From contig OZ024762.1 in the NCBI GenBank assembly GCA_964016885.1, positions 14,012,001 to 14,076,000 on the forward strand: 64,000 nt of DNA. The letters are read 5' to 3'. This document shows positions 34,329 to 53,226 of the stretch, piece after piece. Below the pieces are notes generated by a model. It was not told the origin of the DNA. It did not search any database and worked only from the letters and a program-made list of their open reading frames with translations. The position numbers and the translations under genes are program-made. Numbering within the stretch: the first letter of the stretch is position 1; every line of letters begins with the position of its first letter. The stretch comes from Eledone cirrhosa (taxonomy: Eukaryota).

Positions 34329-34399
34329 TATTTTATTATGCGCATTTCAAAAACAAACATCATCATGCAATAATATTTGTGTTTTCATCAGATAAAACA
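34329..34399 (-). ncRNA. Minimal type I hammerhead ribozyme, intronic and sense to the FAS1 gene
   Basis: Minus strand TGTTTTAT-CTGATGA-AAA c ACAAATATTATT(GCAT)GATGATGTTTGT t TTT-GAAA-TGCGCA-TA-ATAAAATA: 8-bp stem I, ~15-bp stem II, palindromic stem III, AUA site. Confidence 0.8.
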
Positions 34400-34540
34400 G
34401 GAGAACATGATATGAAGGCTAAAAAACACTTGTGGATAGTGCAGTTTTAAATCAACATATTGCTTTATTGTACTACAATAAAACTCACCTCCTACATTAA
34501 TATATAATATATATATATATATATATATATATATATATAT

Positions 34541-34732
34541 AGGAACGAGTAGGACCCCAACGGCTGAGCTCAAGCCGTTTCGACGGCTAATTCAGTCCAG
34601 AATTGCCCGTCGAAACGGCTTGAGCTCAGCCGTCGGTGTCCTACTCGTTCCTATTACCCACTCTACTACCCTAAGTATTGAGTACTTTGGTGCGTTATGG
34701 TCCACCTGGTTCCTTACCATATTTCCTTCGTT
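34541..34732 (+). mobile_element. Short (TA)n-inserted hairpin element with a 3' half hammerhead and an 80-bp tail. Other copies: 35245-35436, 41288-41479, 48279-48415, tail only 39521-39601, arm only 49511-49570, diverged 57233-57375
   Basis: Shared tail tattacccactctactaccctaagtattgagtactttggtgcgttatggtccacctggttccttacca, preceded by GAAAC-GGCT(TGAGCTC)AGCC-GTC and an inverted copy of variable length. Confidence 0.85.
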
Positions 34733-34760
34733 ATATATATATATATATATATACATATAT

Positions 34761-35216
34761 ATGGAAAGTTATATTTAAATTGTTGGGTTAACAACGAGTA
34801 AATATTTATAACTGATATAAAAGCAATCAACAAGTATTTGGAGTATATATATGATATTAAATAAATGGAAACTATATTTATAAAACCATATTTATTTCGT
34901 TATATACATTTCAGGGATATCATATTAACAATATGTTATGCCTTCTTCAGAGAAAATACAATATAAACAGTCTTATAAATAAATAGATACGACATACCTT
35001 TCAATCACCTTGCATTTGGGAGGTTGATTTGGCAGTCAAATCAACCTCCCAAATGCAAGGTGATTGAAAGGTATGTCGTATCTATTTATTTATAGACTGT
35101 TTATATTGTATTTTGTCTGAAGAAGGCATAACATATTGTTAATATGATATCCCTGAAATATATATAACGAAATAAATATGGTTTTATAAATATAGTTTCC
35201 ATTTATTTAATATCAT
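34761..35216. mobile_element. Fold-back element with ~183-bp inverted arms, an HHR in each arm and a ~90-bp unpaired tail
   Basis: Arms 34851-35033 and 35035-35216 are near-perfect reverse complements. HHRs at 34893-34958 (-) and 35109-35174 (+). (TA)n flanks. Confidence 0.85.
35109..35174 (+). ncRNA. Minimal type I hammerhead ribozyme
   Basis: TATTTTGT-CTGAAGA-AGG c ATAACATAT(TGTTA)ATATGATAT c CCT-GAAA-TATATA-TA-ACGAAATA. Confidence 0.75.
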
Positions 35217-36135
35217 ATATATATATATATATATATATATATATAGGAACGAGTAGGACCCCGACGGCTGAGCTCAAGCCGTTTCGACGGCTAATTCTGG
35301 ACTGAATTAGCCGTCGAAACGGCTTGAGCTCAGCCGTCGGTGTCCTACTCGTTCCTATTACCCACTCTACTACCCTAAGTATTGAGTACTTTGGTGCGTT
35401 ATGGTCCACCTGGTTCCTTACCACATTTCCTTCGTTATATATATATAAATATATATATATATATATATATATATATATATATATATATATATGGGATAAC
35501 AAGTTATCGTTATAGGTAATCCAGTTAGAGGTTGTGAATGCTCTGCAACCTCAGGCGATTAGCGAACTCTAGACTCACCTGATCAACGAAACAATTGTCA
35601 GTTATTTAAATAAAGCCTTTATTGTACAGCCAACCATGTTACTCTTCATTCTTTAACTATATATATATATATATATATATATATATATATATATATATAT
35701 AATGTGTGTGTGTGTAAGTTTAGTATATACATATATTTATTTAAGTTTAGTAGTTTACCACTGAATTGAACTGGTCATTCCGTATATTTAATCGTGATGT
35801 AATAGTAGAAAAGTATTCGACGTTAAGCAACTCATCCATCCACCCATCTCTCTCTCTGTATGTGATGGAGCTCGCATTACATAATATTACGACAGAAATA
35901 AATATGTTAATACAACTGTTGTCCTGTTCTCTGCCAAGTCTAAAATAACCCAAGATGTTCTTAAATTCCCTCAGGAGTCTATGGGTCCATACATACTTTT
36001 AAGAAACTCCCCCTATCCTCAGATATTCTGCCATTCTCCCAATTCTGTCAATTATATTATGATTTTTATTCTTTAGTTATCTTTAATTTTTGCAATCAGG
36101 AATATAGTGGATCAGAGGCATTGGTAGAGCGTTGG

Positions 36136-50162: not shown

Positions 50163-51724
50163 GATGTATGTATGTATATATATATATATATGTATATATG
50201 TATGTATATATATATATATGTATATATGTATGTATATATATATATATGTATATATGTATGTATATATATATATATGTATATATGTATGTATATATATATA
50301 TATGTATGTATATATATATATATATGTATATATGTATGTATATATATATATATGTATATATGTATGTATATATATATATATGTATATATGTATGTATATA
50401 TATATATATATGTATATATATATATATGTATATATATATATATATATGTATATATGTATATATATATATATATATGTATATATATATGTATATATATATA
50501 TATGTATATATATATGTATATATATATATGTATATATGTATATATATATATATATGTATATATATATATATATGTATATATATATATGTATATATGTATA
50601 TATATATATATATGTATATATATATGTATATATGTATATATATATATATATGTATATATATATGTATATATGTATATATATATGTATATATGTATATATA
50701 TATATATGTATGTATATATGTATATATATATATATGTATGTATATATATATATATATGTATATATATGTATGTATGTATATATATATGTATATATGTATA
50801 TATATATATATATGTGTACGTATATATATATGTACGTATATATATGTATGTATGTATGTATGTATATATATATATATATGTATGTATATATATATATATA
50901 TGTATGTATATATATATATATATATGTATGTATATATATATATATATGTATGTATATATATATATATATGTATGTATATATATATATATATATATGTATG
51001 TATATATATATATATATATGTATGTATATATATATATATATGTATGTATATATATATATATATATGTATGTATATATATATATATATATGTATGTATATA
51101 TATATATATATGTATGTATATATATATATATATATGTATGTATATATATATATATATATGTATGTATATATATATATATATATGTATGTATATATATGTA
51201 TGTATATATATGTATGTATATATATGTATGTATATATATATATATATATATATGTATATATATATATATGTATGTATATATATATATATGTATGTATATA
51301 TATATATATGTATGTATATATATATATATATATGTATGTATATATATATATATATATATGTATGTATATATATATGTACGTATGTATGTATATATATATG
51401 TACGTATGTATGTGTATGTATATATATGTATGTATGTGTATGTATGTGTGTATGTATGTATATGTGTATGTATGTATATGTGTATGTATGTATATGTATG
51501 TGTATGTATGTATGTATATATATATATATGTATGTATGTATGTATATATATGTATGTATGTATGTATGTATATATATATGTGTATGTATGTATGTATGTA
51601 TATATATATATGTATGTATGTATGTATGTATGTATATATATTTATATGGTATGTGCGTTTGGATATATGCATATATATGTGTATATATATATATATTTGT
51701 ATATATATATATATATATATATAT
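50163..51724. repeat. 1.5-kb (TA)n/(TATG)n compound microsatellite. Similar tracts at 17100-17870 and 63165-64000
   Basis: Directly visible. Confidence 0.98.
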
Positions 51725-52362
51725 GAAGGAAGTAAACACCCGGAACAAGTAATAATAACAATTATTTATTGTAATAAGGAAATGATGAACTATTTGTATA
51801 TATATATATATATATATATATATATATAATTACTTTATGAATACCATAAACATAGGAAAATAAAAATAACAATGTCTGATGCAGGAATTTGACCTTTACT
51901 TTTATCTTCCTCTTCACCCACGTATTCTTGGGAGAGTGGAGGATGGCAACAGATTCTTGAGACAGACCTTCCATAGGAAGTTATCGTATCTAAGTGACTC
52001 GGGTAGACACTCAAGAGATAACAATTGTTTCTACTTTAGGCACAAGGCCAGCAATAACCCAGTGCATTACTGGTACTTTATTTTATCGACCCCGTAAGGA
52101 TGAAAGGCAAAGTCAACCTCGGCGGGATTTGAACTCAGATCGTAAAGGGACGTAACCATGCTGGAAAGCATGGCGTCCGACCCTCTACCGATACTACCAA
52201 CAATAGAAAGAAATATGTTTGTTATCCAACTATTTTGACCACAAGATATAACTGGTTCTCTGGTATCTACTGCTCAGACGGATGAACCAATACTTATGTA
52301 AAATCACACACCAATAAATTATATATATATATATATATATATATATATATATATATATAATT

Positions 52363-52838
52363 TAGGCCGGTTGTATGATGCCTGTGTGAGGAGCGCGATG
52401 CTGCATGGTAGTGAGACATGGGTAGCAACCGCAGAGGATATGCGACGGCTGGAGAGAAATGAGGCAAGCATGCTCCGTTGGATGTGCAGTGTAAATGTGC
52501 GTGAACGACCCAGCATAAATGTGTTGAGAGAGAAACTGTGTCTGAGAGGGATAGAATGTAGTGTACGGGAGAGGAGACTGAGGTGGTATGGACATGTGAT
52601 GCGCATGGAGGCTGACCGATGGGTGAAGAAGTGCCAGGAAATGCCAGTTGAAGGAAGACGTGGTAGAGGTAGACCACGAAAAACATGGGCGGAGGTGGTG
52701 AGAACAGACCTCAGATCATTGAAGCTCACGGTGGAGATGACGAGGGACCGTGACGAGTGGAGAGATGCTGTGATGAATAAGACCCGTCCCACCCTTGCAA
52801 GCAGGGAAAAGCGGACGTAAAATGATGATGATGATGAT
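52363..52838 (+). mobile_element. 5'-truncated RTE-clade LINE 3' end with a (GAT)n tail
   Basis: YDACVRSAMLHGSETW...RLRWYGHVMRM...GRRGRGRPRKTW...RDEWR, stop at 52820, then gatgatgat, flanked by (TA)n. Confidence 0.93.
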
Positions 52839-53120
52839 ATATATATATATATATATATATATATATATATATATATAATATATATATATATATATTGGTA
52901 AAAGGAAAAGAAAATGCTGACAAATTGTTCCCAGTGAAAAATAGTTTAATTAGGAATAAGTAACAATTAGATATAAGTATTGGTTAGTATTCAGTTTTAG
53001 GTTTAAGTTTTTACCGGTTGCGCATTTCTAATGCTTTTCAAAAATTTTGAGATAGAGTGCCCGTGATGTTGGCTCTAATCTCCATATATATATATATATA
53101 TATATATATACATATATACA

Positions 53121-53226
53121 ATGATATTAAATAAATGGAAACTATATTTATAAAACCATATTTATTTTATTATATATATTTCAAGGGTACCAAGAAAACA
53201 TTGGTACGCTTTCATGAGATAAAATA
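53121..53226 (-). mobile_element. Truncated member of the same HHR family with a mutated core (CTCATGA)
   Basis: Shares atgatattaaataaatggaaactatatttataaaaccatattta. Minus strand TATTTTAT-CTCATGA-AAG c GTACCAA(TGTTTTC)TTGGTAC c CTT-GAAA-TATATA-TA-ATAAAATA. Confidence 0.75.

What the first reader, a model, noticed from the sequence alone, without database searches (positions are those of the whole stretch)
34329..53226. One HHR family shows compensatory changes across four loci
Seen: base of stem II is AGG/CCT (35124), AAG/CTT (42339 and the 53.2-kb copy) and AAA/TTT (34329 copy). After a single mismatch the upper stems differ but still pair (ATAACATAT/ATATGATAT, ACACCA/TGGTGT, GTACCAA/TTGGTAC, ACAAATATTATT/GATGATGTTTGT). 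Stem I is TATTTTGT/ACGAAATA versus TATTTTAT/ATGAAATA. Stem III stays self-complementary (TATATA, TATGTA, TGCGCA). Inferred: selection on RNA structure in the active source elements.
Basis: seen in the sequence. Interest (0 to 1): 0.75.

Follow-up and report, generated by a model that had tools for sequence, protein, structure and literature searches.

The report
Hammerhead ribozymes in Penelope-like transposon scraps
These are scattered, truncated end-pieces of what looks like a Penelope-type jumping gene in an animal genome, each carrying a self-cutting RNA motif whose paired stems changed in step; the pattern is real but already well described for this kind of element.

Summary
Four loci carry six type I hammerhead motifs, because two loci are head-to-head fold-backs. 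Stems covary: 8 of 17 anchored pairs change on both sides and 67 of 68 cells pair. A hammerhead descriptor gives 6 hits against 0 in 100 shuffles. Corrections: the 53.2-kb core has G5C, a known inactivating change; the 35.1-kb upper stem has an A·A mismatch; TATGTA needs two G·U pairs; the 34.3-kb copy shares only the ribozyme, not the flanks. These are Penelope-like element (PLE) hallmarks. Public runs show a high-copy repeat with no variant listed at 12 core positions, and the alternative stems recur in many reads and contigs, so the changes arose in source elements. Helix III looks stable only as a dimer. No PLE ORF was found, so membership is inferred. Cervera and de la Peña (2014) already report PLE hammerhead families 'full of covariations', palindromic helix III and opposite-strand pairs. 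New member of a known kind; low interest.

The parts
35109..35174 (+). Type I hammerhead, intact core (CUGAAGA...GAAA), A10.1-U11.1, stem II with C·C and A·A mismatches, palindromic helix III AUAUAUAU, predicted cut after A17 at 35166
34893..34958 (-). Mirror copy of the 35.1k hammerhead; stem I pair 2 broken (C·C)
34851..35213 (.). Head-to-head fold-back pair of 5'-truncated element ends (arms ~34851-35031 and 35037-35213, 5-nt spacer, 2 substitutions and 1 indel between arms), set in (TA)n
34762..34850 (-). ~90-nt 3' tail present on the left arm only; ends at (TA)n
   Evidence: 77 of 91 aligned letters match the 42.4k tail
42324..42388 (+). Type I hammerhead, intact core (CUGAUGA), all 17 anchored pairs formed, helix III AUAUGUAU, predicted cut after 42380
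42123..42187 (-). Mirror copy, identical over the hammerhead
42082..42429 (.). Head-to-head fold-back pair, 174-nt arms, 3 differences, no spacer
42430..42517 (+). ~90-nt 3' tail on the right arm only; ends at (TA)n
53122..53226 (-). Solo copy, 5'-truncated at the start of stem I and abutting another repeat (homologue at 47893-47951); core CUCAUGA (G5C at 53216), predicted inactive; short 3' end into (TA)n
   Evidence: G5C named among catalysis-preventing core changes in PMC11875169
34329..34399 (-). Solo hammerhead of a related but distinct family: intact core, 12-bp upper stem II with 3 G·U, helix III AUGCGCAU; flanks unrelated; predicted cut at 34337, 108 nt upstream of a host 3' splice site, sense to the host pre-mRNA
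33792..34228 (-). Host fasciclin (FAS1) gene, probable last coding exon (context)
   Evidence: Pfam PF02469 positions 98-122, E 1.7e-4, 22.2 bits vs cut-off 22; acceptor and stop read
44421..44586 (-). Host fasciclin gene, probable upstream exon (context)
   Evidence: PF02469 positions 18-49, E 0.019, below cut-off; splice signals read

Best explanation
The loci are 5'-truncated pseudo-LTR (pLTR) fragments of a high-copy Penelope-like retroelement family (three loci) plus a relative (34.3k), inserted at microsatellites, at least three of them in introns of a fasciclin-domain gene. In the source elements the transcript folds into a type I hammerhead. Stems I and II and the core are under purifying selection at the RNA level, so subfamilies diverge through paired changes, probably by way of G·U intermediates. 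The 8-nt palindromic helix III is unstable in one molecule and pairs with a second copy (tandem pLTR), so cleavage after AUA would need a dimer, perhaps also the element's protein. New copies come from uncut RNA, since they run 45 or ~135 nt past the cut site, and from two alternative 3' start points, giving the tail on one arm. The genomic copies are passive: fold-backs bury the ribozyme in a ~175-190-bp hairpin, and the solo 53.2k copy has a dead core. SHOWN: motif, covariation, repeat nature, fold-back plus one-arm tail, decay. INFERRED: PLE origin, dimer cleavage, G·U path, uncut template.
For: Motif and covariation; the predicted folds of the three intact-core copies give stems I and II with an open core. 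High copy: 3133 contigs in X1 and 27262 of 12467656 reads in X13 lie on 176 nt; depth falls ~400-fold from 35181 to 35037 in X1, as 5' truncation or divergence predicts. Core invariant at the 3% threshold, N7 variable; the three listed stem I changes (35168 C>T 96-98%, 35169 G>A, 35170 A>G) all keep pairing with the unchanged partner, and since G35115 has no listed variant, G·U is probably the common state between A-U and G-C (unlinked, inferred). Helix III: monomer +4.7 kcal/mol, dimer -2.2 to -10.5. One-arm tail and inverted 5'-truncated pair; described as PLE traits in PMC8557442 and PMC3846280 (passages). An independent inverted junction occurs in an X5 contig (record 9). Two RT start sites, uncut RNA as template and protein-assisted cleavage are shown for an anole PLE in PMC11167929 (passages).
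Against: No PLE RT or GIY-YIG hit among the 150 most complex of 695 reading frames of 45 aa or more; no frame open through the upstream pieces that I could recognise; no whole genome was held, so no link to an autonomous element is shown. The tail (~90 nt) is longer than the 30-40 bp in print. Pair 10.1-11.1 is A-U in all six copies, not the G-C reported as highly conserved. In reads, 35154 T>C reaches 15-20% with no partner change listed at 35124, and pair 35131/35147 is not held (A>C 18-35%, A>G 3-39% vs A>G 11-68%), so pairing is not absolute; divergent reads are clipped, so these counts are biased and unlinked. The 3' tail is also nearly invariant, so core invariance is not unique to the core. 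Folding z-scores are modest (-0.8 to -2.9) and not clearly strand-specific.
Confidence: 0.8

Rival explanations
1. Dispersed monomers or fragments of a non-autonomous non-LTR retrozyme (a tandem hammerhead repeat making circular RNA), mobilised by PLE proteins, rather than ends of an autonomous PLE. Selection on structure is the same; the source differs.
For: No ORF found; full-size stem I with an internally looped extension recalls canonical type I motifs; a 2026 preprint derives animal retrozymes from pLTRs and reports solo monomers (part 1 and passages); a true tandem hammerhead repeat of another family sits at 5555-6532.
Against: None of the four loci is tandem head-to-tail; they are variably 5'-truncated, inverted and carry a one-arm tail. 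Reads show only short 'goes back 28/50' joints, 6 reads from 2 starts each.
Confidence: 0.12
2. The paired changes come from DNA-level repair of quasi-palindromes (template switching or conversion between arms of a hairpin), not from selection on RNA; the elements clearly make fold-backs.
For: Stem II is a local inverted repeat and is the most divergent part (21 of 31 letters shared between 35.1k and 42.3k, vs 36 of 39 in the proximal tail); the family forms palindromes.
Against: Stem I arms lie ~50 nt apart across the core and also covary; G·U occurs where A·C does not (4 read-level changes give G·U vs 1 that would give A·C); the C·C mismatch is kept in all copies, which palindrome repair would erase; the catalytic letters are kept while N7 varies.
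Confidence: 0.05
3. The 34.3k copy has been co-opted as an intronic ribozyme that affects splicing or stability of the host fasciclin pre-mRNA.
For: Intact core, solo, sense to the host transcript, 108 nt upstream of the acceptor of the last coding exon; strongest dimer helix (-10.5); co-opted intronic hammerheads are known in amniotes (PMC6155905 passage).
Against: Helix III cannot form stably in a monomer; in a 280-nt intron context the predicted fold loses stem I; at one hammerhead locus per ~16 kb, a position near an exon is unremarkable; no conservation data.
Confidence: 0.05

Closest known systems
Hammerheads in pLTRs of metazoan Penelope-like elements (Cervera and de la Peña 2014, PMC4209133; parts 1-2 of 4 read)
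   Same: Type I topology, long helix II, small palindromic helix III needing a dimer, mostly single dispersed motifs, pairs on opposite strands ~100-700 bp apart, families with covariation and high variability.
   Different: Helix I is 8 bp plus a looped extension rather than 4-5 bp; A10.1-U11.1 instead of G10.1-C11.1; no extra base between positions 9 and 10.1; a fixed C·Y mismatch after 3 bp of helix II (D. virilis has a bulge mid-helix II).
EN+ PLE insertion structure (Arkhipova 2013, PMC3846280; Craig 2021, PMC8557442; passages read)
   Same: Inverted 5'-truncated copy head-to-head, palindromic junction, optional tail on one end, microsatellite (TA)n targets that hide target duplications.
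   Different: Tail ~90 nt rather than 30-40; no ORF in any copy here; clade (Penelope/Poseidon, Neptune, Hydra) not assignable. Naiads are said to lack canonical hammerheads, which argues against that clade.
Anolis PAc element (Frangieh 2024, PMC11167929; passages read)
   Same: Hammerhead retained intact in DNA copies, two 3' end points downstream of it, AT-rich targets.
   Different: In PAc the ORF starts inside the hammerhead; here the ATG in the core (42.3k) meets a stop after 11 codons and is absent in 35.1k (read from sequence).
Non-LTR retrozymes (PMC7229834 passages; bioRxiv 10.64898/2026.07.22.740005 part 1 and passages)
   Same: Non-coding, type I hammerhead, low GC, animal repeat.
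   Different: Retrozymes are head-to-tail units of 150-450 bp; these loci are truncated inverted pairs or solo pieces.

Membership tests
Type I hammerhead ribozyme | Core C3 U4 G5 A6 N7 G8 A9 / G12 A13 A14 A15.1 / U16.1 H17 | tested here: met
   5 of 6 motifs intact; 53.2k has G5C; no variant of 3% or more listed at 12 core positions in 4 runs
Type I hammerhead ribozyme | Three helices, open end at helix I | tested here: met
   Helices I and II in predicted folds and covarying; helix III 2 bp as monomer, 8 bp as dimer
Type I hammerhead ribozyme | Match to an Rfam hammerhead model | tested here: not met
   No hit at gathering score in the window or up to E 10 in 34000-36000; long helix II and AU-rich stems depart from the models (inference)
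Type I hammerhead ribozyme | Self-cleavage after H17 | not testable with these tools
   Needs an in vitro assay; no RNA holder listed
Type I hammerhead ribozyme | Loop I-loop II tertiary contact | tested here: inconclusive
   Internally looped stem I extension predicted in 35.1k and 42.3k, but loop II differs in length and sequence among copies
Penelope-like element (EN+) | ORF with telomerase-like RT and GIY-YIG endonuclease | tested here: inconclusive
   No hit in 150 of 695 frames scanned; copies are truncated to under 300 nt, so absence is expected; genome not held
Penelope-like element (EN+) | Hammerhead in the terminal repeat with palindromic helix III | tested here: met
Penelope-like element (EN+) | 5' truncation with adjacent inverted copy | tested here: met
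   2 of 4 loci; one more junction in an X5 contig and depth falling 5'-ward
Penelope-like element (EN+) | Optional tail on one end only | tested here: met
   2 of 2 inverted pairs; ~90 nt, longer than the 30-40 bp in print
Penelope-like element (EN+) | Target-site duplication or microsatellite target | tested here: inconclusive
   Ends lie in (TA)n/(CA)n, so no duplication can be read
Non-LTR retrozyme | Head-to-tail tandem units each with a hammerhead | tested here: not met
   0 of 4 loci tandem; the unrelated 467-bp repeat at 5555-6532 does meet it
Non-LTR retrozyme | Circular monomeric RNA | not testable with these tools
   No RNA holder listed

The most novel reading that the evidence does not exclude
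This is a structurally distinct, full-size PLE hammerhead (A10.1-U11.1, a fixed C·Y mismatch, long helix II, looped helix I extension) whose solo, intact 34.3k relative has been kept as a functional intronic ribozyme 108 nt upstream of the last splice acceptor of a fasciclin gene, cutting only when it pairs with a second transcript, i.e. an invertebrate case of a transposon ribozyme co-opted as a concentration-dependent switch on host pre-mRNA.
Probability: 0.05. Interest if true: 0.65.

Novelty: new member of a known kind. Interest (0 to 1): 0.25.

Why it matters
As it stands it adds one more PLE-type hammerhead family. Its use is as material: what the PLE hammerhead does is still open (dispensable for insertion in vitro and protein-assisted, PMC11167929; absent from Naiads, PMC8557442). 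A very high-copy family with fast-changing but paired stems is a natural mutational scan that shows the motif is under selection in source elements, and gives ready constructs for monomer-versus-dimer tests. My searches listed no paper describing hammerheads of cephalopod PLEs, but I did not read the supplements of PMC4209133 or PMC8557442, which list invertebrate and mollusc elements and may hold this family; subscription papers were not searched.

Tried and rejected
Own-genome search: none held. Two degenerate-pattern scans of metagenome contigs: 0 matches each. Rfam: only below-threshold hairpin (miRNA-like) hits to the fold-backs, rejected as generic. Pfam scan of 150 of 695 frames: only an RT fragment at 40234-41010 (RVT_1 plus DUF6451; LINE-like by my reading), unrelated to the loci. 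A covariance model from the four loci found the six known motifs and three weak hits (E 0.37-0.86, AT-rich), no new member. Earlier scan findings by sequence and place: nothing. ESM Atlas for the host exon: fasciclin clusters at score 0.75-0.76, lead only, no taxon. Lünse et al. 2017 not held; known only through a review. Assembly fold-back artefact rejected: arms differ at 3 places, flanks are not mirrored, the tail is on one arm. MITE reading considered: arms meet head to head at variable points instead of bounding an internal spacer. ADAR footprint (A>G the commonest listed change, 5-6 places per run) considered; too few sites. Host taxon: the repeat landscape recalls an octopus, from memory only, not tested.
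Full report
Setting. The window is AT-rich, microsatellite-laden animal DNA; no whole genome is held. A fasciclin-domain gene runs on the minus strand: a probable last coding exon at 33792-34228 (PF02469, E 1.7e-4, just at cut-off) and a weaker upstream exon at 44421-44586 (E 0.019). Three of the four loci lie between these exons. That the animal is an octopus is my recollection of its repeat landscape and was not tested.

Observation. A script search for hammerhead cores with up to one mismatch found seven motifs: 35109-35174(+), 42324-42388(+), 42123-42187(-), 53163-53226(-), 34329-34399(-), and two of an unrelated family at 5724 and 6191. A sixth member, 34893-34958(-), appears by blastn and by a covariance model. 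A strict descriptor gives 6 hits in the window and 0 in each of 100 block-wise dinucleotide shuffles. Rfam's models do not hit. Predicted folds of the 35.1k, 42.3k and 34.3k copies show helices I and II with an open core; z-scores are modest, -0.8 to -2.9, and the opposite strands score similarly.

Covariation. On the MAFFT alignment of one motif per locus, 64 of 64 cells pair and 5 of 16 pairs change on both sides; 3 of 500 column shuffles reach this and slid controls give 0-2. Three upper-stem pairs were omitted there because 34.3k was out of register. With columns anchored on the core, 8 of 17 pairs change on both sides (I.2, II.2, II.3, II.5, II.6, II.8, II.9, II.10), two more on one side through G·U, and 67 of 68 cells pair. 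Four of the eight hold among the three close loci alone. Two pairs of the dimeric helix III also change together in 34.3k. Placing the same number of substitutions at random keeps as many pairs with P from 5e-6 to 0.04. These tests are not independent and the columns were chosen after the fold was seen; four loci cannot replace R-scape.

Corrections. The 53.2k core is CUCAUGA (G5C, 53216); G5C is named among core changes that prevent catalysis (PMC11875169, two passages). The 35.1k upper stem has an A·A mismatch, its mirror arm a C·C in stem I. TATGTA pairs with itself only through two G·U. The 34.3k copy shares the ribozyme but only a 20-nt blastn match and no flanks, so 'one family' is three loci plus a relative.

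The 35.1k and 42.3k motifs are arms of head-to-head fold-backs of ~180 and 174 nt, 98% complementary. In each pair one arm stops ~45 nt past the cut site and the other carries a further ~90 nt; the two tails share 77 of 91 letters and end at (TA)n. An inverted 5'-truncated copy, palindromic head-to-head junctions, an optional tail at one end and (TA)n targets are described for endonuclease-bearing PLEs (PMC8557442 and PMC3846280, passages). For an anole PLE the tail equals the distance between two reverse-transcription start sites, uncut RNA is the template and cleavage needs the element's protein (PMC11167929, passages). No RT or GIY-YIG of a PLE was found in the 150 most complex of 695 frames, so PLE origin rests on architecture.

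Family-wide data. Four public runs were laid on 35037-35212 at 80% likeness. X1 gave 3133 contigs, X13 27262 of 12467656 reads, X6 56 contigs, X5 2: a high-copy repeat under three organism labels (depth is no copy number; X13 is reduced-representation). Depth falls steeply towards the 5' side. No variant of 3% or more is listed at the 12 core positions; N7 varies at 14-54%. The three listed stem I changes keep pairing. C35168 is T in 96-98% while G35115 has no listed variant, so G·U is probably the usual state and the window's G-C and A-U are its two resolutions; this is inferred from unlinked depths, with divergent reads clipped. Against: 35154 T>C at 15-20% has no listed partner change, pair 35131/35147 is not held, and the non-catalytic proximal tail is as invariant as the core.

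Mechanism. Helix III is a 2-bp hairpin costing +4.7 kcal/mol in one molecule, but an 8-bp duplex of -2.2 to -10.5 between two, the dimer arrangement known for animal type I and PLE hammerheads (PMC4209133 parts 1-2; review PMC6765202 passages). I infer cleavage after AUA in tandem source transcripts, and selection there. The copies in this window are probably silent: a transcript across a fold-back forms one hairpin of -259 to -284 kcal/mol with 97-98% of bases paired, the 53.2k copy is mutated, and 34.3k has no partner and loses stem I in its predicted intron context.

Rivals. Retrozyme monomers (0.12): no tandem units at these loci. DNA palindrome repair (0.05): does not explain the kept C·C mismatch, the long-range stem I, core conservation or G·U without A·C. 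Co-option of 34.3k (0.05): position and orientation fit, but nothing tests it.

Known or new. [quoted passage not shown] PLEs cover 6.83% (190 families) of one octopus genome, in a paper with no mention of ribozymes in text or supplement (PMC13282606). The family differs in detail (A10.1-U11.1, longer helix I, longer tail). I found no description of it in five searches, but did not read the supplements most likely to list it. Verdict: real, correctly interpreted, a new member of a known kind; interest 0.25.

Noticed in passing
window 5555-6532: Tandem repeat of 467 bp (2.1 copies, 99%), each unit with a different type I hammerhead (5724-5768, 6191-6235; helix III A-CUAG-U palindrome): looks like a classical non-LTR retrozyme able to form a dimer.
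   Followed up: partly
window 34540-34731, 35244-35435, 41285-41476, 48278-48414, also 39521-39600, 49517-49568, 57253-57362: A second fold-back family with the same plan (inverted arms of variable length plus a ~75-nt tail on one arm, set in (TA)n) but no hammerhead core seen; probably another PLE-type family. Two copies flank the 35.0k element as a 270-nt direct repeat.
   Followed up: partly
window ~35068-35076(+), ~42284-42292(+), ~34483-34491(-): A splice-donor-like word (G|GTATGT or G|GTGAGT) lies 40-90 nt upstream of stem I in three loci; background 0.06 per 100 nt. PLE pLTRs can hold an intron ending at helix I. Noticed after the fact, untested.
   Followed up: partly
window 40234-41182 and 52302-52820: Retrotransposon ORF fragments: RVT_1 hit at 40234-41010 (E 6.6e-9); the 52.3k frame has no Pfam hit but reads like the C-terminus of an RTE-type LINE (recalled).
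   Followed up: no
window 47893-47951, 53022-53065, 53236-53293: A short repeat occurring three times; one copy abuts the 5' truncation of the 53.2k hammerhead and another lies inverted on its other side.
   Followed up: no
window 10362-10988, 12835-13423, 19849-20236, 60598-62043: Minisatellite or SINE-like tandem arrays (periods 133, 193, 138 and ~124).
   Followed up: no
window 12742-12789 (-): Weak match (80% over 49 nt) to the family's proximal tail without a hammerhead; may be chance in AT-rich DNA.
   Followed up: no
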